IMG/VR virus record: IMGVR_UViG_3300030372_000414 | Coordinates: 1-36,443 of that record | Length of the DNA: 36,443 bases | Source of the DNA: a virus | Lineage: Duplodnaviria; Caudoviricetes | Reading direction: 5' to 3' (one strand) | Part shown: positions 4,527 through 29,738 of the stretch, one piece after another | Position numbering within the stretch: position 1 is the stretch's first letter | Layout: each line of letters starts with the position of its first letter | The notes under the pieces: model-generated | Database searches by the model: none | The model's input: only the letters and a program-made list of their open reading frames with translations | What the model was told of the DNA's origin: nothing | Position numbers and translations under genes: made by a program

Positions 4527-6049
4527 TGGCACAGCAACGACAAGTAATATACATAGGTGCTCCGGGTTTCAGAGGACTGAATACTCAAGACTCACCTGTT
4601 AATCAGGATCCGTCCTTTGCATCCATAGCGGAAAATGCTATAATAGATAAGTTTGGTAGGATTGGTGCTAGGAAAGGTATAAACAAAGTAACTAGCTCTT
4701 TGACAGCCTTAGGGTCTAGCATAGGCACTGAAAGCGTAAAAGAGTTTATAGCTTTAGATGGCGGTAAGAAAGTATACTCCGCTGGTAACAATAAGATATT
4801 TAGTGGTACTACCTCGCTAACTGATGAAACTCCGGGTGGTTACACAATATCTGCAAACAACTGGAAGATGGTCAACTTTAATGACCATATGTATTTTTTC
4901 CAGACAGGCCATGCTCCGTTAATATATCAGGACGGAGGCACGTTAGAGACTATAGCTAGTCACTCAGGAGCGTCAGGTACACCACCAAACGCTAATGAAG
5001 CTATAGCAGGGTTTGGTAGAATATGGGCTGCTGATGTGAGTGGAGACAGGAATACACTGTTCTTCTCTGACACACTAGACGGCACTGATTGGAACTCAGG
5101 CACGTCAGGTAGCCTAGACGTTAAAACTGTATGGCCTACAGGTTTTGACGAGATTGTAGCACTAGCTACACACAATAACTTTTTAGTTATATTTGGTAAG
5201 AAGTCGATACTTTTGTACTCAGGTGCAAGTGCTCCAGCATCGATGACCCTAGCAGACAGCGTAACAAATATAGGCTGTATAGCTAGAGACAGTGTACAGA
5301 ACACAGGAACAGACGTAATCTTTTTGTCTGACTCAGGAGTTAGAAGTTTAGGTAGAACAATACAGGAAAAGTCAGCACCGATAGGAGACATATCTAAAAA
5401 CGTCAGGGACGAGTTGATGTCTGACGTAAATACTGAAACACTTAACATAAAATCAGTGTTTAGTCCAGAGGAGGCTTTCTATCTTTTGTTCTTACCTACT
5501 ACGTCTAAAGTGTACTGCTTTGATATGCGAGGTACACTGGAGGACGGTAGCCATAGGGTAACTACATGGCCTAACACTAAGATACTGTGTGCAGACAGGA
5601 TAGATGACGGTACATTACATTTTGGTTCTGCAAAGGGCATAGGTAAGTACAGCGACTTTTTAGATGACGCAACGCCTTATGTTATGAAGTACTACACAAA
5701 TCCGTTATCCTACGGAGATGCTTCAAGACTAAAGATGTTGAAGGAAATAGATTTTACAGTAATCGGAGGCCAGAATACTTCTGTAGTTGTTAACTGGGGT
5801 TATGATTATAAGGAAGCGTACACAAAACAGACAGCAACATTGTCTGACGCTAAGATAGCGGAGTACGGCGTTTCAGAATATAACGTAGCAGACTCAGAAT
5901 ACAGTGCATCAATTATTATTGACAGTGCACAAATCAAAGCAACAGGGACAGGTAAAGTAGCTACCATAGGTATAGACGCAACAATAAATGGGAAGTCTTT
6001 ATCAATACAGGAGTTAAAGACGGAAGCTTTAATAGGTAAGTTAATATGA
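4526..6049 (+). CDS. Tail nozzle / tail tubular protein B-like (P22 gp10-like)
   Basis: FRGLNT N-terminus, GCIARDSV and FLSDSGVRSL beta-propeller-like motifs; follows adaptor. Confidence 0.7.
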   Translation: MAQQRQVIYIGAPGFRGLNTQDSPVNQDPSFASIAENAIIDKFGRIGARKGINKVTSSLTALGSSIGTESVKEFIALDGGKKVYSAGNNKIFSGTTSLTDETPGGYTISANNWKMVNFNDHMYFFQTGHAPLIYQDGGTLETIASHSGASGTPPNANEAIAGFGRIWAADVSGDRNTLFFSDTLDGTDWNSGTSGSLDVKTVWPTGFDEIVALATHNNFLVIFGKKSILLYSGASAPASMTLADSVTNIGCIARDSVQNTGTDVIFLSDSGVRSLGRTIQEKSAPIGDISKNVRDELMSDVNTETLNIKSVFSPEEAFYLLFLPTTSKVYCFDMRGTLEDGSHRVTTWPNTKILCADRIDDGTLHFGSAKGIGKYSDFLDDATPYVMKYYTNPLSYGDASRLKMLKEIDFTVIGGQNTSVVVNWGYDYKEAYTKQTATLSDAKIAEYGVSEYNVADSEYSASIIIDSAQIKATGTGKVATIGIDATINGKSLSIQELKTEALIGKLI

Positions 6050-9000
6050 CAAACTATTCTAAAACCACTAACTTTACAGCTAAAGATTCTTTAGTCTCTG
6101 GAGACTCTAATAAAATAGTTAGAGGAGCAGAAATTGACACAGAGTTTGATAACATATCTACGGCGGTTGCTACGAAGTCTGACATCGCCAGCCCGACATT
6201 CACAGGAGTTGTTTCATTTCCTGACGGTTCTGCTGGGAATCCCTCTATTACTAATACTGGTGATACTAACAGTGGTTTATTCTTTAGCGCAGCCGATACT
6301 TTGGCTTTTACTGCTGCTGGCACAGCACAGTTCACAATGGCTGATGGAGTCATCGCACCTGTTACAGATAATGATGTAGACCTAGGTACAAGCTCACTTG
6401 AGTTTAAAGATGCTTACTTTGATGGTACAGTACACACTGACGCTATCAACTTAGACGGTACAGATATCACAGCTACGGCAGCTGAACTTAACATCATGGA
6501 CGGTGTGACTGCTACTGCTTCTGAGTTAAACATCCTAGACGGCGTAACGTCAACTGCAGCAGAGCTAAACATTTTAGATGGAGTTACTGCGACTACGGCA
6601 GAACTCAATATCATGGACGGTGTAACGTCTACAACTGCTGAACTCAACATCCTAGACGGTAAAGCGTTTCTCGATGAAGACGATATGTCTTCCAACAGTG
6701 CCACAGGTATCGCTTCCCAGCAGTCAATTAAAGCTTACGTAGACGCACAGATAACTGCAGAAGACTTAGACGTTACTTCAGACAGCGGTACGATTGCTAT
6801 TGACCTAGATAGCGAAACACTAACCATCGCTGGTGGTGAAGGTATTGATACGTCCGCTACAAGCAACACAGTTACCATTGCTGCTGAAGAGGCAACTACG
6901 TCAAACAAAGGTGTAGCTTCTTTTGATTCTAATGACTTTACAGTATCTAGTGGTGCAGTTAGCCTAGCTACGACTTCCACAGCAGCAGAACTAAATATCC
7001 TAGATGGTGCTACTTTAAGCACAGCAGAACTTAACATACTCGATGGAGTAACGAGCACTACTGCAGAGCTAAATATCCTAGATGGAGTTACGTCTACTGC
7101 AGCAGAACTAAATATTCTTGATGGTGTGACAAGCACAGCTGCTGAACTAAACATTCTTGATGGCGTTACGGCTACAACAGCAGAACTTAACATCCTTGAC
7201 GGTGTTACTTCTACAGCAGCAGAGTTAAATATATTAGATGGTAAAGCTTTTCTTGACGAAGACGATATGTCTTCAAATAGTGCTACAGGTATTGCCTCTC
7301 AACAATCTATTAAGGCTTATGTAGACGCACAGATCACCGCTGAAGACCTAGACTTCCAAGCAGACTCTGGTGGTGCATTAAGCATAGACTTAGACTCAGA
7401 GACCCTTACGTTTACTGGTGGTACTGGTATAGACACCAGTGGTTCGGGTAATGCTGTGACCTTTGCTATCGATAGCACTGTAGCAACTCTTACCGGCTCA
7501 CAAACGCTAACCAATAAATCACTAACTGCACCTACGCTTACAGGTACGGCTGTAGTGGCTTCTTTAGACATCTCAGGCGACATAGACGTAGACGGCACAA
7601 CCAACCTCGATGGATTAACGGTAGACGGTAATGCTCGTATTGAAGAATTAGGGGCTATAGCCAAAATAACACTTGAGCGTGGCGGTTCAGCTAACGCCGC
7701 TGATAGCGCGGCGGTGGATTTGCTAGAGACTAACGCTGGATCTGAGGGCGCAAATTTTGGTGATGCGGCTACAAACGGTTTTAGGCTAAAACTTGATGGA
7801 AGCGCAAACGACTTTTTAATTCAGTCGGGTGCTGCTGGAACAGTAGCTACTAGATTTGGAATTGATAGAGACTCTGGTGAAGTTACTATCAATGATCCCG
7901 GTAATTCTACTGCTGATTTTAGAGTGGAGTCAGACGGCAACGCTAATATGCTGTTTGTGGATGCTGGTAATGATCATGTAAACATCGGTACGTCCACAGA
8001 TTTAGGTGGCGTGTTAAATGTTTTTGGCACTGGCGCGGGTAACGCAAGGGTTGTCATTGAAGGTGAAAGCAGCGCGGACCCTTATATAAACTTCCTCGCT
8101 AATAACACCACTCACTTTTCTATAGGTATCGATGACAGCGACAGCGACTCATTTAAAATAAGTCAAAACTCTGCTCTTGGCACTAATGATTTTTTTACGC
8201 TCACTACTGACGGTGGTGTAATCCTTGATAGGTCTGATAACGGAGATAATCTTACCCTAAGAACTTCAGACACAGATGCGTCTACTGGCCCTATTCTTAA
8301 TCTAAATAGAAACTCAGCTAGTCCAGCAGATAACGATTATATTGGTGAGATCAAATTTGATGGGCGTAATGATGCCGGTCAAGCGGTAACTTATGCGGGT
8401 TTTGCTGGGCGGATACTAGACGCTTCAGATGGAACAGAAGATGGCCGTTTTGAGTTGTACACGAAGTTGGCTGGTGCTCAAATCTCAAGGTTTTTAGCCA
8501 GTGATGAAACCGTCATCAACGAAGACTCCGTAGATTTAAATTTTAGGGCAGAAAGCAACAACGAAGCATTTATGTTGTTTGTTGATGCGGGGAATGACCG
8601 GATTGGGATGGGGATTTCCACACCAGACTGCCGTTTACATGTGAGGGACGGAGACGCAGGAGGAGTAACCGCTGCAACAAATTCTGTTTTGTGTCTCGAA
8701 TCAAACGGTGATGCTCTTCTTCAGTTTTTAACTCCAAATGCTAACGGCCAACAAATACGTTTCGGTGATCCTCAAGACACTGGCGCAGGATTTATAAATT
8801 ACGATCATAATACAAGCGTCATGTCCTTCGGGGTTAACGGCCCCTCAAGAATGTCCATAAATAGCTCTGGCAGCGTATCAATGCCAAATCTTAGTTCGGG
8901 TGCTGGAAACGCTGATCTTAGATATAACACTGGAAACGGCGATATAACTTACGATACATCAAGCAGACTTGTAAAAGAAAACATAGAAGATATTCCTTAT

Positions 9001-9288
9001 GGGTTAGAAGCTGTTAAAAATCTTTCACCAAAAAAATATAAAAGAACAGACGGCGACAAAAATGTAGAGGTTGGTTTTATTGCTGATGAAGTTGTGGAAG
9101 TAGTTCCAGAGCTTGTTGGGATGATGGCTAAATCAGTATTTACCGAAGAAGAATCAGATACAGAGGAGATAGCAGGATCTGTTAATTATAGCAAACTTAC
9201 AGCGGTGTTAGTAAAAGCAATCCAAGAGCAGCAAGAGTTGATAGAAACATTGCAAACAAAAGTAGCTGCATTAGAAGGAGGTAGTTAA
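6046..9288 (+). CDS. Tail fibre with C-terminal intramolecular chaperone (peptidase S74-like)
   Basis: 13-aa repeats; C-terminal SSRLVKENI...GFIADEV...PELV...VNYSKL...LVKAIQE and coiled coil. Confidence 0.85.
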   Translation: MTNYSKTTNFTAKDSLVSGDSNKIVRGAEIDTEFDNISTAVATKSDIASPTFTGVVSFPDGSAGNPSITNTGDTNSGLFFSAADTLAFTAAGTAQFTMADGVIAPVTDNDVDLGTSSLEFKDAYFDGTVHTDAINLDGTDITATAAELNIMDGVTATASELNILDGVTSTAAELNILDGVTATTAELNIMDGVTSTTAELNILDGKAFLDEDDMSSNSATGIASQQSIKAYVDAQITAEDLDVTSDSGTIAIDLDSETLTIAGGEGIDTSATSNTVTIAAEEATTSNKGVASFDSNDFTVSSGAVSLATTSTAAELNILDGATLSTAELNILDGVTSTTAELNILDGVTSTAAELNILDGVTSTAAELNILDGVTATTAELNILDGVTSTAAELNILDGKAFLDEDDMSSNSATGIASQQSIKAYVDAQITAEDLDFQADSGGALSIDLDSETLTFTGGTGIDTSGSGNAVTFAIDSTVATLTGSQTLTNKSLTAPTLTGTAVVASLDISGDIDVDGTTNLDGLTVDGNARIEELGAIAKITLERGGSANAADSAAVDLLETNAGSEGANFGDAATNGFRLKLDGSANDFLIQSGAAGTVATRFGIDRDSGEVTINDPGNSTADFRVESDGNANMLFVDAGNDHVNIGTSTDLGGVLNVFGTGAGNARVVIEGESSADPYINFLANNTTHFSIGIDDSDSDSFKISQNSALGTNDFFTLTTDGGVILDRSDNGDNLTLRTSDTDASTGPILNLNRNSASPADNDYIGEIKFDGRNDAGQAVTYAGFAGRILDASDGTEDGRFELYTKLAGAQISRFLASDETVINEDSVDLNFRAESNNEAFMLFVDAGNDRIGMGISTPDCRLHVRDGDAGGVTAATNSVLCLESNGDALLQFLTPNANGQQIRFGDPQDTGAGFINYDHNTSVMSFGVNGPSRMSINSSGSVSMPNLSSGAGNADLRYNTGNGDITYDTSSRLVKENIEDIPYGLEAVKNLSPKKYKRTDGDKNVEVGFIADEVVEVVPELVGMMAKSVFTEEESDTEEIAGSVNYSKLTAVLVKAIQEQQELIETLQTKVAALEGGS
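6466..6660 (+). repeat. Five 39-bp/13-aa repeats (VTSTAAELNILDG-type)
   Basis: Read from translation. Confidence 0.9.
6970..7242 (+). repeat. Seven 39-bp/13-aa repeats (VTSTAAELNILDG-type)
   Basis: Read from translation. Confidence 0.9.
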
Positions 9289-9290
9289 AA

Positions 9291-9653
9291 ATGGCAATAA
9301 CAACAACATGGAGCGTCAACAACATGACGCACGTTGACGCAGATGGTGGGGTAATACTCGTGTACTGGCAACTTTTAGCAGCTAGTGATGCAGGGGGTGG
9401 TGAGTCAGCTACTGATGGTGGTAAAAATCGTTTTGAGTATGATGCGTCAAGCAGTGATTTTATCAGGTATGACGATCTAAAAGAGAGCGATGTTTTAGGT
9501 TGGGTCTATGATGCCAACAAAGGGGAAGGTTCTGGTGGTCCAGCAGACGAGACAGCAGACGAGTATAAAGCTAGAATTGAGGCTGAACGTACAGCTAAAG
9601 TTCAGGCACAGATTGATCGAAATACTGCACAATCAGAGGGAGTACCTTGGTAA
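9291..9653 (+). CDS. Tail-fibre-associated protein (possible fibre chaperone)
   Basis: Directly after fibre; FIRYDDLKESDVLGWV and terminal GVPW; SD AAGGAGG. Confidence 0.55.
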   Translation: MAITTTWSVNNMTHVDADGGVILVYWQLLAASDAGGGESATDGGKNRFEYDASSSDFIRYDDLKESDVLGWVYDANKGEGSGGPADETADEYKARIEAERTAKVQAQIDRNTAQSEGVPW

Positions 9654-9655
9654 CA

Positions 9656-9829
9656 ATGGACGCTGAACAAAAGCTACATTCCCATGAACGTGAGTGTGCT
9701 TTACGTTACGAGATGATAGAAAAACGTCTTGACGAGGGTTCACAAAAGATGCGTAGGTTAGAAATGATGATAATAGGTGTATATCCCTTTATCGTTGCTT
9801 CAGTGTTTTTAGCACACTTTTTAAATTAG
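9656..9829 (+). CDS. Small coiled-coil protein with C-terminal TM helix
   Basis: HERECALRY motif, coiled coil, then MIIGVYPFIVASVFLA; ATG 9656 preferred over TTG 9647. Confidence 0.6.
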   Translation: MDAEQKLHSHERECALRYEMIEKRLDEGSQKMRRLEMMIIGVYPFIVASVFLAHFLN

Positions 9830-9838
9830 GAGAAAACA

Positions 9839-10141
9839 ATGAGTGATGGTACTATCCGTATTCCACAGTGGGCCTTACCTCTAGGTGCTGGAGCATTTGC
9901 TATAGCAGTATCGTGGGGTGTACTTCAAGCTAATACGGCTCATGCTGCATCAGACAGAGAACGCATAGAATCTATAGCGGAGGAAGCTGCAAAAAAGGCA
10001 GTAGCCAATGGACAGCAAGTGGCTGTCAATACAACCAAACTGGAAGTAATCGTGCAGTCCCTCAGCGAACAGAAGGAAATTCAGAGCAAGACAAACGAAC
10101 AGATAGCCCAGCTTGTACAGGCTCTGTTGGCGAAGAACTGA
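9839..10141 (+). CDS. N-terminal TM plus coiled-coil protein (i-spanin-like topology)
   Basis: WALPLGAGAFAIAVSWGVL hydrophobic segment then heptad-rich region; SD AGGAG. Confidence 0.65.
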   Translation: MSDGTIRIPQWALPLGAGAFAIAVSWGVLQANTAHAASDRERIESIAEEAAKKAVANGQQVAVNTTKLEVIVQSLSEQKEIQSKTNEQIAQLVQALLAKN

Positions 10142-10422
10142 CATTTGATCCTAGAGTTACGGCTGAAGGTTACAAATGTGACCTAAGACGCTGGAGAAAC
10201 TTGCAGTTAATACATAATCCTTCTGAAAGACATAAAGCTGCTTTGCAGTTTTTAGCTAGGAATCAAAAGACTTGCCAGTATGGGCAGGTGGTGTACATAG
10301 ATAACACAATGCCTAGAATACTAGGTACAGCCCATACGAAAGAAACTGAGACACTAACATGGGGTTTATTAGAACCAAGAGCTATAGTAACACAAGCAGT
10401 TAAGCAGAAAAGAAATATATAA
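9991..10422 (+). CDS. -1 frame ORF, candidate frameshift extension of 9839 gene (ORF track calls only 10201-10422)
   Basis: Frame open from 9934 to TAA 10420-10422 with no ATG/GTG/TTG before 10201; in-phase A AAA AAG at 9991-9997. Confidence 0.5.
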   Translation, partial: KKGSSQWTASGCQYNQTGSNRAVPQRTEGNSEQDKRTDSPACTGSVGEELTFDPRVTAEGYKCDLRRWRNLQLIHNPSERHKAALQFLARNQKTCQYGQVVYIDNTMPRILGTAHTKETETLTWGLLEPRAIVTQAVKQKRNI

Positions 10423-10685
10423 TGGAAATGCTAGTTTACGTACTGTTGATGCTAAAGGCCGGGGAGCCAACCGGCTTCCAAATTTATTTCCAGACCTTAA
10501 CTAGCTGCTCAGAGCATCGGCTAGCTATACTCCATCAGAGTGCTGCTAAGTATGCTTTTGTTCTCCCTAGGACAAACAGGTTTGATATGATATGTGAGCC
10601 TAGGCTAATAGATAAAGCAGATGCAGGAAGTAAAATTATATTTCACGATCTTGAAATGACGAAGGACGATAGTAACAGAGAATAA
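10422..10685 (+). CDS. Small hypothetical protein with hydrophobic N-terminus and two Cys
   Basis: TAATG coupling to the upstream stop. Confidence 0.6.
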   Translation: MEMLVYVLLMLKAGEPTGFQIYFQTLTSCSEHRLAILHQSAAKYAFVLPRTNRFDMICEPRLIDKADAGSKIIFHDLEMTKDDSNRE

Positions 10686-10687
10686 TT

Positions 10688-11836
10688 ATGTCAAATGGAA
10701 CATTCAATACAGACTACTCTAATTTACCAATACCTACTGGTTTGGGACTAGAAGTTCCTCCATTAGATCCTAGTCTTTTAGCTCCTACAGGTATTGATAC
10801 AAGCGGTGGTTTTTTAAACTTTCTAAGTAATTTAAACTTAGGAGACTTAGCTGCCACAGGTTTGTCAGCAGCAGCCTTAAATGATACTATGAGGCGTTTG
10901 TCTTCCGTGGGTGAAGCAGCAGCCTTAGGAGCACAAAACATAGGCAGACAAGCGCAAACAGACGCAGCGTTTCAGCCTTTTACAGTTACTACAGGTTTTG
11001 GTCAGGTAGGTGCTACTCCTCAGGGTGGTTTTACTACTACAATGTCTCCACAGCAGCAAGCTAGACAAGAAGCCCTTTCAGGAATCACAGGAGGCCTTCT
11101 AGGGCAGTATACTCCTAGGGGTATGGGGGGTAGGTCAGGTATAGAACAACAGGCCTTACAAGGCACTACAGGCGCTCTAACAGCCCTTGGTGCTCCCATG
11201 GCTACCAGAGAGGCTGATGTATTTGAACGTATAAGAGCAGTACAAAGACCTGAGGAAGAAAGACAAAGGCTAGCATTACAAGATCGATTACTTAGTCAGG
11301 GTAGACTAGGATTACAGACAGCAGCGTACGGTGGTTCTCCAGAGCAGTTTGCATTAGCACAGGCACAGGAAGAAGCTAAAAACAGAGCATCCTTAATGGC
11401 TTTGCAACAGGCAGGTGCGGAAAGACAGCAAGACTTAGCATCTGCACAGGGACTCTTTGATTTAAGCACTAGGGCTGCTACAGTTCCTAGTGCGCTAACG
11501 GCTGCTGACTTAAGTAACATACAGCAGTCCTTAGCACTAGAGACTGTACCTGAGCAAACCCTCTTGTCTACTTTACAGCCAGCAATAAACTTAGCAGGTA
11601 TAGCTGACCTAGGTAGAAGACAGGGTGCTGGATTCGCTGCTGAAGGTGGTATGTCTGGACTAGAGCTAGCTGTACAAACAGACCTAGCTAGAGCAGACTT
11701 ACTTAAACAACTTTACGGTGGACTGTTAAGTGGTGCTGGTAGTGCAGCAGGGTCACAAGGGTTGTTCTCAAGTTTATTTGATACCGATAGTACCTTAGGT
11801 GGTCTATTGAGTGGTATAAGTGGTCTTTTTACATAG
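10688..11836 (+). CDS. Putative internal virion (ejection) protein
   Basis: G/A/Q/L-rich, FQPFTVTTGFG motif, Gly-rich hydrophobic C-terminus; position after tail genes. Confidence 0.6.
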   Translation: MSNGTFNTDYSNLPIPTGLGLEVPPLDPSLLAPTGIDTSGGFLNFLSNLNLGDLAATGLSAAALNDTMRRLSSVGEAAALGAQNIGRQAQTDAAFQPFTVTTGFGQVGATPQGGFTTTMSPQQQARQEALSGITGGLLGQYTPRGMGGRSGIEQQALQGTTGALTALGAPMATREADVFERIRAVQRPEEERQRLALQDRLLSQGRLGLQTAAYGGSPEQFALAQAQEEAKNRASLMALQQAGAERQQDLASAQGLFDLSTRAATVPSALTAADLSNIQQSLALETVPEQTLLSTLQPAINLAGIADLGRRQGAGFAAEGGMSGLELAVQTDLARADLLKQLYGGLLSGAGSAAGSQGLFSSLFDTDSTLGGLLSGISGLFT

Positions 11837-20520: not shown

Positions 20521-20899
20521 ACTGCACCAACTCGTCTATCTGTCCTATTGTAAAAAACCTAAAGTTTTCTTTTTCGCACCATTGTCCCATTGTCATCTTT
20601 GCACCTTTCCTTATCTTTTTGTTGGGATCAGACAAAAGAAAAATTAACTCCTTGTCGATGCTGTCCCGGATAGCTTTGTACTTCATCGTATCACCGGCTC
20701 GAAAGAACCCCTTACATTCTATCATAATACCAGTAGCTTTGTGAACAAAATCTGGCTTGTATTTACGATACATTGTGTACGGCACATCAAACGGTTCATA
20801 CGAAAACTTTCTCTTAGGCAGTATCTTAGCAAAAGTAGCCTCTAAGCCTGACCTGTACCGGCTCTTATAGCCCTTGGATTTCAGCGACTTTCGGCTCAT
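20507..20899 (-). CDS. T7 endonuclease I-like Holliday junction resolvase
   Basis: YRSGLE, YKPDF, IECKG, WCEK motifs. Confidence 0.88.
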   Translation of the reverse strand: MSRKSLKSKGYKSRYRSGLEATFAKILPKRKFSYEPFDVPYTMYRKYKPDFVHKATGIMIECKGFFRAGDTMKYKAIRDSIDKELIFLLSDPNKKIRKGAKMTMGQWCEKENFRFFTIGQIDELVQYVSA

Positions 20900-21734
20900 T
20901 TTTTACCTCTACTAAGAATTTTGGACCGTAAGCGTAAGAGAATACGCGCAGCTGGGGATAGCACGAAAACTTGAAATGACAGTAAGAACATCCTACGTCT
21001 AGTTTTTGGTTCCCACTCTTTCCATCTGGTACAGGCTCGTAGCAATGCTCTGGAGGTGCTGGAGCCTTTACGAGCTTTTTTATGTAGCGTATCCTTTCTA
21101 CTATGTCTTCCTTCAAAACTTCGTATACAGGAGCTTGTGTGTCTTCCAAGTCGTACTGTAGGTACGTTAAGTGACCATTCTGTTTATCCATGGCTAGCCA
21201 GCCAAACTTAGTCTCGCCCTCAGAATGAGCGTAGGCTTTTATTTGATCTATATAACCAAAAGGATCATCAAAAGCCAGCGTTGCGTTTTTAAACTTCTTA
21301 AATCCATAACTACTAGCTGATTTTACGTCAGTCACTACTCCGTCTATTTTACAGTCCATATGTCCCTTAATACCTTCGATCTCACATTCTTTCTGTTCAT
21401 CCGTAACGGAATGACCAGAGAGTCTAGTGAGAAACAAAAGCATCTCCTCTATCAAGTGTCCGTACAGAAACTTGACTAAGGTATGGGGTTGCATAGGCTC
21501 TTTCGGGCCTACGTTGTTGTAATGATTCCAGAGGTATCTATCGTCTTTACCTATGTTGGACATACGTAGTTTACGTCCATCAAAGGAGCCCCGATTGACA
21601 AACTCTTTTCTCATTAGATCTTTGACAGCCTCACCGAATTTTTCGATCTCAGCATTAGTGTCTACTGCCTTGTCTACCTTTTTGGTTTTGACTAAGGCGT
21701 ATATGTCTTTAACTAAGGTATTAACTGTTTTCAT
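20865..21734 (-). CDS. PD-(D/E)XK (Cas4/RecB-like) exonuclease
   Basis: LRMSNIG, FLYGHLIE, GHMDC...DVKS, C-terminal C...CSYCHFKFSC; start reassigned to Met19 of track ORF. Confidence 0.8.
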   Translation of the reverse strand: MKTVNTLVKDIYALVKTKKVDKAVDTNAEIEKFGEAVKDLMRKEFVNRGSFDGRKLRMSNIGKDDRYLWNHYNNVGPKEPMQPHTLVKFLYGHLIEEMLLFLTRLSGHSVTDEQKECEIEGIKGHMDCKIDGVVTDVKSASSYGFKKFKNATLAFDDPFGYIDQIKAYAHSEGETKFGWLAMDKQNGHLTYLQYDLEDTQAPVYEVLKEDIVERIRYIKKLVKAPAPPEHCYEPVPDGKSGNQKLDVGCSYCHFKFSCYPQLRVFSYAYGPKFLVEVKNEPKVAEIQGL

Positions 21735-22053
21735 TATCAGAGCCTTTGTAATGGTTGACAAACCTACATTTTCTAGTTCTAGGATCAAAAGCTAAAAACA
21801 CTACTCCTGCTTCTTTTTGCGCTTGCGTCCTCCAACCAGAGTTTTCTTTGTGGGGTTTATTAACTTTGTCCGTTTTAACGTCTATAAGTGTTATTTCTCC
21901 ATCTCTGATAGCTATTAAATCTATCATTCCTGTGCTGCCTGAGTTTTTAAACACTTCATATCCGTTATCCCACAGCCAAGTGACTGCGTAGTACTCAGCA
22001 AAGTCTCCTTTTCGACTCGTATCACTAATGAGTTTCGGCCCAGCTTTTTCCAT
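21721..22053 (-). CDS. Small PD-(D/E)XK endonuclease (Hjc-like)
   Basis: KGDFAE...GYEVF...IDLIA...IDVKT; start uncertain. Confidence 0.7.
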   Translation of the reverse strand: MEKAGPKLISDTSRKGDFAEYYAVTWLWDNGYEVFKNSGSTGMIDLIAIRDGEITLIDVKTDKVNKPHKENSGWRTQAQKEAGVVFLAFDPRTRKCRFVNHYKGSDNENS

Positions 22054-29002: not shown

Positions 29003-29401
29003 ATGGAAATAAAACGGAAGAGAGGTAGACCTAGAAAATCTGACATAGCAGAAAAAACCACAGGTAACAGAAGATCCGTTGGCAGACCTAAGGGTGATGC
29101 TAGTATCATAAACGAATACAAAGCTAGAATGTTAGCTTCCCCTAAATCTAAAAAAGTATTAGATAGTATATTCAATGCAGCTTTAGATGATGACCATAAG
29201 AATCAAGCAGCAGCATGGAAGCTCGTAATGGATAGAATGCTTCCACTTAGTTATTTTGAAAAGGAAGCCACAGGTGGCCGTCAGTCTGTACAAATCACTA
29301 TATCAGGAGTTAATGGAGTTAATACCACCATCGGCCCACAGGATACTAACGACTCTACCATGCCAGCTATTGAAGGAGAATACAGCGAAAGTGACGTATA
29401 A
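29003..29401 (+). CDS. Putative terminase small subunit with AT-hook-like motifs
   Basis: KRKRGRPRK and VGRPKG; helical core; first gene of arm, upstream of TerL. Confidence 0.65.
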   Translation: MEIKRKRGRPRKSDIAEKTTGNRRSVGRPKGDASIINEYKARMLASPKSKKVLDSIFNAALDDDHKNQAAAWKLVMDRMLPLSYFEKEATGGRQSVQITISGVNGVNTTIGPQDTNDSTMPAIEGEYSESDV

Positions 29402-29738
29402 GTATTTTAAAGTAGAGGACTTTGCTTGTTCTGAGACAGGTGAGAATGAAATACAGGATGTGTTTGTAAAAAAGCTGGATGAGCTTAGAGAAGCCTGTGG
29501 TTTTCCTTTCATAGTCACAAGTGGCTACAGATCACCTAATCACCCTATAGAAGCCAAAAAGTCTAGTCCGGGTCTTCATGCACAAGGTATAGCAGCTGAC
29601 ATAGCTGTCAATGGTGGTGTACAGCGTAGAAAGATTGTACATTCAGCAATCATATTAGGATTCAAAGGAATAGGTGTAGCTAAGTCTTTTGTCCATGTGG
29701 ACACTAGAGAAAGCACGCCAGTTATGTGGACATACTAA
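29391..29738 (+). CDS. Endolysin, peptidase M15A family
   Basis: YFKVEDFAC, TSGYRS, HAQGIAADI, FVHVDTR; GTG 29391 with AAGGAG SD preferred over 29256. Confidence 0.88.
   Translation: MTYKYFKVEDFACSETGENEIQDVFVKKLDELREACGFPFIVTSGYRSPNHPIEAKKSSPGLHAQGIAADIAVNGGVQRRKIVHSAIILGFKGIGVAKSFVHVDTRESTPVMWTY

What the first reader, a model, noticed from the sequence alone, without database searches (positions are those of the whole stretch)
9979..10422. Candidate dnaX-type -1 programmed frameshift giving two membrane-anchored proteins from one gene
Seen: in ORF 9839 the codons GCA AAA AAG place A AAA AAG (9991-9997) in the correct phase. An internal SD-like GGAGG lies at 9979-9983, and a hairpin GACAGC-AAGTG-GCTGTC (10011-10027; alternative GTAGCCA/TGGCTGT stem 10001-10026) follows. 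The -1 frame has no stop from 9934 to 10422 and no ATG/GTG/TTG until 10201. Across the ~50-codon overlap no T-ending codon precedes AA/AG/GA, although this genome favours T-ending codons. The shifted product would be ~194 aa: TM anchor, polar linker, then ...YKCDLRRWRNLQLIHNPSERH...KTCQY..., whose first Cys lies upstream of the 10201 TTG. Established: SD + A AAA AAG + hairpin is the E. coli dnaX/IS3-family signal. Inference: fixed-ratio production of a coiled-coil (spanin-like) and a Cys-containing exported isoform, in a podovirus where a tail-chaperone frameshift is not expected. Caveats: the SD is slightly closer than in dnaX and the main hairpin starts 13 nt downstream.
Basis: partly seen in the sequence, partly recalled or inferred. 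Interest (0 to 1): 0.7.

Follow-up and report, generated by a model that had tools for sequence, protein, structure and literature searches.

The report
Frameshift lends export signal to domain
A small gene of uncultured marine phages carries a ribosome slip signal that its relatives keep, or rebuild with other letters at other positions, so it likely makes two exported proteins from one start: a short helical one and a longer one ending in a cysteine domain that has no export signal of its own, a likely new use of frameshifting near phage lysis genes.

Summary
The coordinates are confirmed, and comparative evidence strongly supports a programmed -1 frameshift; nothing was measured. In 118 distinct loci found with ORF 9839, 95 carry a two-cysteine domain right after the stop, always in the -1 frame; 93 of the 95 are stop-free from the slip site to the domain. 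All 17 loci without the domain lack both the heptamer and the open frame. In 142 loci with the domain, 86 have A_AAA_AAR, 24 have G_GGA_AAR six codons further on, and 32 have only an A_AAR tetramer. 117 of 142 have no start codon between site and first cysteine. Seven distant homologues of the domain begin with their own signal-peptide-like segment, so the shift likely supplies the export signal. An invariant A-x-A suggests a cleaved signal peptide rather than an anchor, and no lipoprotein partner supports a spanin. Function is inferred only: most likely a periplasmic lysis accessory. Verdict: new variant of a known kind.

The parts
9828..9832 (+). AGGAG ribosome-binding site of ORF 9839
   Evidence: sequence
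9839..10141 (+). ORF1, 100 aa: hydrophobic N-terminal segment plus amphipathic helical region (short, zero-frame product)
   Evidence: 75 homologues at 48-98% identity; no curated Pfam hit
9869..9946 (+). Export signal: hydrophobic residues 11-29 (mean Kyte-Doolittle 1.62) and invariant A34-x-A36, a likely signal peptidase I site
   Evidence: A34 and A36 in 55 of 55; cleavage inferred
9979..9983 (+). [quoted passage not shown]
   Evidence: GGAGG in 49 of 95 loci, GGAG or GAGG in 70 of 95, 0 of 17 in loci without the domain
9991..9997 (+). Slippery heptamer A_AAA_AAG, codons 51-53
10011..10027 (+).
9997..10137 (+). -1 frame polar linker, 47 codons overlapping ORF1, rich in S/G/Q/T, no hydrophobic stretch
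   Evidence: highest 12-residue hydropathy 0.62 in 88 loci
10138..10422 (+). -1 frame two-cysteine all-helical domain (Cys at 10177 and 10273) with a basic C-terminal tail; no own start or signal upstream of the first Cys
   Evidence: alignment A2, AlphaFold2 model pLDDT 81, five helices
9647..9829 (+). Upstream neighbour: 60-aa coiled-coil with C-terminal hydrophobic segment, also seen upstream in many relatives
   Evidence: no family hit at curated cut-off
10422..10685 (+). Downstream neighbour: 87-aa protein with hydrophobic N-terminus and two Cys, start overlapping the -1 frame stop
   Evidence: no family hit

Best explanation
ORF 9839 likely uses a programmed -1 ribosomal frameshift at A_AAA_AAG (9991-9997) so that one start codon and one predicted export signal would yield a 100-aa helical protein and a 194-aa protein that carries a start-less two-cysteine domain, both likely acting in the host periplasm as lysis accessories. 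Shown by sequence comparison: the phase, the open -1 frame, the conservation and turnover of the motif, the joint loss of motif, open frame and domain, and own signal-like N-termini in free-standing homologues. Inferred: tandem slippage of Lys (or Gly-Lys) tRNAs; modest, lineage-tuned efficiency, since no stimulator is family-wide (SD in some lineages, a 9-10 bp stem in the GCA_AAG lineage), making the long form the minor product; Sec export with probable cleavage after Ala36; an intramolecular disulfide; a role in lysis (about 0.45), from gene neighbourhood only.
For: Domain in the -1 frame in 95 of 95 loci that have it; frame open from K52 in 93 of 95; 0 of 17 domain-less loci have the heptamer or an open frame. 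-1 stops occur up to 4 codons before the site and none after it. In 30 clusters at 90% identity codon 51 ends in A in 27, and the other 3 are GCG GCA AAG; K52-K53 is AAA AAG 21, AAA AAA 5, while Lys elsewhere is 66 AAG to 65 AAA. Loci picked by the domain alone: 54 of 54 have a shifty motif 3-27 codons after the last -1 stop, 24 of them G_GGA_AAR, six codons downstream of the window's site; there Thr is ACG in 24 of 24 and Gly GGA in 24 of 24, against 15 of 104 and 9 of 70 elsewhere in the same genes (related sequences, not independent). A_AAA_AAG and G_GGA_AAG are two of the three most efficient heptamers in E. coli and A_AAG the best tetramer (PMC4066793, passages). 117 of 142 loci have no ATG/GTG/TTG between site and first Cys; the other 25 have only a TTG two codons before it. 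Seven distant homologues and MW202825 have hydrophobic N-termini directly before the first Cys. Free-standing homologues sit directly before holin-like and lysozyme-like genes; marine loci often lie by an M15 peptidase, lysozyme or holin-like gene.
Against: No measurement of shifting or of either protein. No family-wide 3' structure and SD only partly conserved, so efficiency could be low. 32 of 142 loci have only a tetramer, and NNA_AAR hexamers also occur in 6 of 17 domain-less loci, so these sites are weakly pinned; tetramers without a stimulator barely shift in E. coli (PMC4066793), and 14 GTA_AAG loci show no consensus structure. L048 and L014 keep the domain but lost the site and have a -1 stop 4 codons after it; their only candidate is ACA_AAG further down. 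The first locus set was searched with a pattern containing KKA, which enriches for the motif. The cassette also occurs away from lysis genes (for example L094, L106, after the portal gene), and in the window the holin-like and peptidase genes lie far away (797-1144, 29256-29738).
Confidence: 0.88

Rival explanations
1. The domain is a separate small gene started at CTG 10138, TTG 10201 or by re-initiation at the ORF1 stop; the open overlap is incidental.
For: Gene callers list 59-79 aa products from internal starts. 25 of 142 loci have a TTG two codons before the first Cys. L048 and L014 lack the site.
Against: The codon overlapping the ORF1 stop is NTG in only 3 of 95 loci. Internal starts drop the invariant Cys16-Asp17 and the conserved YDP stretch and give no export signal. 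It does not explain 47 stop-free codons, the heptamers, or their joint loss with the domain.
Confidence: 0.05
2. RNA polymerase slips on the A run and standard translation of the altered mRNA gives the fusion (as in Thermus dnaX).
For: The window has six A in a row and 11 of 142 loci have seven. Both mechanisms are known for dnaX (PMC5009743, passages).
Against: 24 loci use G_GGA_AAR and 31 use NNA_AAG, with runs of only three or four A; the motifs follow tRNA re-pairing rules in codon phase. One low-depth RNA-library contig over the site shows no indel (weak).
Confidence: 0.04
3. The frameshift is real, but the N-terminus is an uncleaved anchor and the short form is an i-spanin-like protein, with the long form as its partner.
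For: One hydrophobic segment followed by about 65 helical residues, as in i-spanins (PMC6139136, passages); neighbourhood of lysis genes.
Against: Invariant A-x-A after the hydrophobic segment; free-standing homologues of the domain have ordinary signal-peptide-like N-termini; no lipobox-bearing ORF on the late-gene strand near it; no spanin family hit.
Confidence: 0.2
4. The frameshift is real and the domain is an antiholin-like periplasmic regulator in the manner of T4 RI.
For: In freshwater phages the free-standing domain gene directly follows a membrane protein whose Atlas look-alikes include a cluster with PF11031 Phage_holin_T in 12% of members (score 0.98; a lead only), and precedes holin-like and lysozyme-like genes. 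RI is a small periplasmic protein with a cleavable signal peptide (PMC8385771, passages).
Against: A profile of that neighbour hits 7 freshwater loci and none of the marine loci or the window, so the marine long form has no recognised T-like target. The neighbour has no Pfam hit itself.
Confidence: 0.2
5. The frameshift is real but the products have nothing to do with lysis, for example periplasmic superinfection exclusion or host-envelope modification.
For: The cassette is mobile and lies in several contexts, some without lysis genes close by; it is followed by other small exported two-Cys proteins of unknown function.
Against: Repeated adjacency to endolysins and holin-like genes in both marine and freshwater phages.
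Confidence: 0.3

Closest known systems
E. coli dnaX and IS1/IS3-family -1 programmed frameshifts (PMC4066793, PMC5009743; passages read)
   Same: A_AAA_AAG, G_GGA_AAG and A_AAG motifs in phase; SD-like sequence at a stimulatory distance in the window; mid-gene site.
   Different: No conserved 3' structure; SD only in part of the family; the shift lengthens the product (dnaX shortens it); the site has moved between at least three positions; the products are predicted to be exported.
Lambda gpG/gpGT tail assembly chaperone frameshift (PMC5009743, passages)
   Same: Phage late gene; -1 shift; minor long form shares the N-terminus and adds a start-less domain.
   Different: Shift is mid-gene, so the long form loses half of the short form; N-terminal export signal; no major-tail or tape-measure neighbours recognised; podovirus-like genome.
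T3/T7 gene 10, Lactobacillus A2 and Listeria phage capsid or tail extensions (PMC5009743, passages)
   Same: A domain that can exist on its own is appended by frameshifting.
   Different: Those are virion proteins extended at their C-terminus; here the shared part is an export signal and the appended domain is helical with two Cys.
Embedded or overlapped two-component spanins (PMC6139136, passages)
   Same: Two envelope proteins from overlapping frames; o-spanin lies in the -1 frame in 116 cases.
   Different: O-spanins have their own start and lipobox; this -1 frame has neither and needs a shift.
T4 antiholin RI (PMC8385771, passages)
   Same: Small protein with a cleavable signal peptide; free-standing homologues of the domain lie beside a T-like membrane protein.
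   Different: No sequence match; no T-like gene found in the marine loci; no frameshift in the passages read.

Membership tests
Bacterial -1 programmed ribosomal frameshift | Slippery X_XXY_YYZ heptamer or Z_ZZN tetramer in phase with the zero frame | tested here: met
   110 of 142 heptamer, 32 of 142 tetramer
Bacterial -1 programmed ribosomal frameshift | Conserved open -1 frame from the site to a conserved coding region without its own start | tested here: met
   93 of 95 open; 117 of 142 without start
Bacterial -1 programmed ribosomal frameshift | Measured shift or trans-frame peptide | not testable with these tools
   needs reporter, proteomics or ribosome profiling
dnaX-type cassette (SD + heptamer + hairpin) | [quoted passage not shown] | tested here: inconclusive
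   met in the window (8 nt); GGAGG 49 of 95, 11 of 30 clusters; GGAG/GAGG 70 of 95, 21 of 30
dnaX-type cassette (SD + heptamer + hairpin) | Conserved stem-loop starting 4-10 nt after the motif | tested here: not met
   window hairpin starts after 13 nt, z -1.25; no consensus in 30 clusters; present only in the GCA_AAG group, 12 of 12 with 9-10 of 10 pairs
Tail assembly chaperone G/GT | Shift near the 3' end of a cytoplasmic chaperone gene in the tail gene cluster | tested here: not met
   site at codon 53 of 100, hydrophobic N-terminus, neighbours are small membrane or exported proteins
Two-component spanin | Type II inner-membrane protein with periplasmic helices | tested here: inconclusive
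   one hydrophobic segment, but invariant A-x-A; no topology predictor available
Two-component spanin | Outer-membrane lipoprotein partner with a lipobox | tested here: not met
   pattern scan of all six frames: 7 hits, none in 9000-11000 and none in the frame of a likely gene; unusual lipoboxes could be missed
T4 RI-type antiholin | T-type holin partner in the same genome | tested here: inconclusive
   lead in freshwater phages; profile of 4 sequences finds none in marine loci or window
T4 RI-type antiholin | RI-like fold | tested here: inconclusive

The most novel reading that the evidence does not exclude
A widespread marine phage family uses ribosomal frameshifting as a signal-peptide-sharing device: one export signal delivers both a coiled-coil protein and, at a tuned low ratio, a tethered disulfide domain that controls or completes lysis in phages lacking spanins. 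The slip site is evolutionarily interchangeable (A_AAA_AAG, G_GGA_AAG, A_AAG plus stem) and has moved along the gene, with stimulators traded against motif strength.
Probability: 0.35. Interest if true: 0.8.

Novelty: new variant of a known kind. Interest (0 to 1): 0.7.

Why it matters
The phage frameshifts in the passages I read concern tail chaperones, capsid or tail extensions, Cro and the RNA phage MS2. This one lies mid-gene in a predicted exported protein and would share an export signal with a domain that elsewhere has its own. The family gives a natural series for testing bacterial frameshift rules: two optimal heptamers at different positions, tetramer variants with and without a stem, and lineages that lost everything together. 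It also shows a systematic annotation error: databases hold the domain as truncated 59-79 aa 'genes' without the first cysteine, and the 194-aa product is absent. If lysis-related, it points to an undescribed envelope step in abundant uncultured marine phages.

Tried and rejected
A long-range stem (offsets 5-14 with 59-68) is the top diagonal in domain-bearing clusters but equally in domain-less ones (2.66 against 2.87), so it is not a family-wide signal; kept only for the GCA_AAG group, where it rests on close relatives without shown covariation. No consensus structure for G_GGA (18 distinct regions) or GTA_AAG loci (14). Search for an in-frame fused form: none among longer proteins (weak); P0099 (236 aa) joins the upstream gene, ORF1 and the domain but looks like an error-rich read and was not counted. 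Family scans gave no named hit for ORF1 or the domain; Atlas hits for the domain had a recognition value under the mark and were rejected. Fold searches: no PDB match at E 0.001, best Z 5.5 for a helical model, no solved relative by sequence; the viral library gave three uncharacterised uncultured-phage proteins (E 0.005-0.024). The model of the freshwater T-like neighbour failed (pLDDT 32). The complex prediction of that neighbour with the free-standing domain gave no answer. ORF1 has no match in cultured phages. Host not assigned: one hit in a Sphingobacteriales bin contig (L243) may be a binned phage. The RNA-library run X18 holds two 151-nt contigs at depth 2: no evidence of expression. 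mis-parsed loci with double stops and was replaced. Literature searches found no description of this gene family; the library lacks most subscription journals and I opened no supplements (candidate lists in those of PMC4066793 could bear on novelty, though that survey covered enterobacteria).

Full report
Context. The window reads as the genome of an uncultured marine phage (portal, terminase, family A polymerase, primase-helicase, ribonucleotide reductase; names from my reading of the translations). Its polymerase is 48% identical to pelagiphages HTVC115P/103P and its portal 21-25% to HMO-2011-type phages; 'podovirus-like' is an inference. Near-identical DNA is held by marine metagenome runs. 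ORF 9839 lies after a long tail-fibre-like gene in a row of small membrane or exported proteins.

Observation. All coordinates hold. The overlap avoids T-ending codons before AA/AG/GA (0 of 14 junctions). The chance of an open overlap under synonymous resampling is 0.006 (window usage) or 0.042 (uniform). Eight in-phase X_XXA_AAR heptamers occur in 31 genes of the window; only this one leads into 100 or more open codons. Four runs laid on the stretch show no indel.

Relatives found with ORF1. Searches returned 5 loci, 1, the best 80 of 238 and the best 80 of 170; with the window, 162 sequences collapsed to 118 distinct. Classified by the presence of the C-D-[LMIV]-R domain after the ORF1 stop: 95 with, 17 without, 4 too short, 2 truncated. 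The domain is in the -1 frame in 95 of 95, and the frame is open from K52 in 93. Site sequences: A_AAA_AAG 68, A_AAA_AAA 10, GCA_AAG 12, GTA_AAG_AAA 3, none 2. In the 17 without the domain, none has the heptamer and none is open. On a tree of 42 ORF1 proteins the domain-less state needs 2 changes, though one origin is not excluded by the best-supported branches alone. -1 stops occur down to 4 codons before the site, which rules out an upstream start for the frame. This set was searched with a pattern containing KKA, so it is biased towards the motif.

Relatives found with the domain. This set is free of that bias: best 80 of 170; 17 were too near a contig end, 1 lacked the motif; 53 distinct plus L243 gave 54. 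All 54 have a shifty motif 3-27 codons after the last -1 stop: G_GGA_AAG 19, G_GGA_AAA 5, A_AAA_AAG 15, A_AAA_AAA 2, tetramer only 13. The G_GGA site aligns six codons downstream of the window's site, and another group has A_AAA_AAG or GTA_AAG about four codons upstream. Combined, 142 distinct loci: 86 A_AAA_AAR, 24 G_GGA_AAR, 32 tetramer only; 117 have no ATG/GTG/TTG between site and first Cys, 25 have a TTG two codons before it. A_AAA_AAG and G_GGA_AAG are two of the three best heptamers in E. coli, and A_AAG the best tetramer (PMC4066793, passages). Replacement of one optimal motif by another at a different position is the strongest argument, because it is not explained by protein conservation or by polymerase slippage. 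Against: tetramer calls are permissive (6 of 17 domain-less loci have one in codons 46-62), and L048 and L014 keep the domain without the site.

Stimulators. The SD-like GGAGG is at a usable distance in the window but is in 49 of 95 loci (GGAG or GAGG in 70 of 95; 0 of 17 domain-less). The hairpin is not significant and no consensus structure exists in 30 clusters; mean folding z against synonymous shuffles is -0.63 with the domain and +0.47 without, a weak trend. The 12 GCA_AAG loci, which lack GGAGG, all have 9-10 of 10 pairs in a stem starting 5 nt after the motif, as if a weak motif were compensated; they are close relatives and covariation is not shown. The efficiency is therefore unknown and probably differs between lineages.

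Products. Short form 100 aa, long form 194 aa. Residues 11-29 are hydrophobic and A34-x-A36 is invariant in 55 of 55, so a cleaved signal peptide is at least as likely as an anchor. The -1 linker is polar in 88 of 88 loci and variable; the domain has two invariant Cys and a confident five-helix model (pLDDT 81), with a conserved basic tail. A disulfide is inferred, not measured on the model. The profile search of 1.84 billion representatives gave 23 hits: fragments of the marine family, one repeat-protein false hit, and seven distant proteins (E 2e-5 to 7e-4) whose domain directly follows a hydrophobic, signal-peptide-like N-terminus; MW202825 has the same form. The domain is thus normally exported, and in the marine family the shift is the only evident way to give it a signal.

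Function. In the four freshwater loci listed and in MW202825 the free-standing gene lies between a membrane protein with a T4-holin-T-like Atlas lead (PF11031 in 12% of one cluster) and holin-like and lysozyme-like genes. Marine loci often lie near an M15 peptidase, lysozyme or holin-like gene, but not always. No T-like gene was found in the marine loci or window and no lipoprotein partner near the gene. I commit to a periplasmic lysis accessory at about 0.45; spanin-like, antiholin-like and non-lysis readings remain open. An earlier unreviewed note of this scan (e1-10221115) reports a -1 shift in a holin-like gene of another marine phage; it is a different gene, I did not test it, and it is not support.

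Novelty. The mechanism is known; the gene family, the sharing of an export signal and the site turnover were not found in eight literature searches or in passages of PMC5009743, PMC4066793, PMC10885494, PMC6139136 and PMC8385771 (passages only, no supplements). Verdict: new variant of a known kind; frameshift 0.88; interest 0.7.

Noticed in passing
window 10422-10685 and relatives (for example L140, L146, L088): A family of 60-100 aa proteins with a hydrophobic N-terminus and two Cys follows the cassette, often in two copies, also where the frameshift domain is lost; no Pfam or PHROG hit.
   Followed up: partly
L244:1866-2504, L162:1797-2441: Freshwater phage membrane protein (PHROG 31287) with an Atlas lead to T4 holin T, directly upstream of the free-standing domain and a second holin-like gene.
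   Followed up: partly
L048 and L014, ORF1: Slip site lost and -1 stop 4 codons after it, yet the domain is intact; ACA_AAG 14 codons further on may be a relocated site.
   Followed up: partly
L087, L092, L106, L111 and others, just after the domain gene: A 74-76 aa gene starting IPPFPNSV is often inserted between the domain and the two-Cys gene; absent from the window.
   Followed up: no
window 20865-21788 (- strand), codon 238: Another in-phase A_AAA_AAG followed by 60 open -1 codons in the exonuclease-like gene.
   Followed up: no
window 6046-9288: Long tail-fibre-like protein with many TAAELNILDGV repeats, a duplicated block and a C-terminal chaperone-like region.
   Followed up: no
window 29256-29738: Peptidase M15 (likely endolysin) lies before the terminase, about 19 kb from the cassette; the holin-like gene (PHROG 2524) is at 797-1144, so lysis genes are dispersed here.
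   Followed up: partly
L243 (JAAXIF010000071.1): The only hit in species genomes is a phage-like 44.8 kb contig in a Sphingobacteriales bin; host link untested.
   Followed up: no
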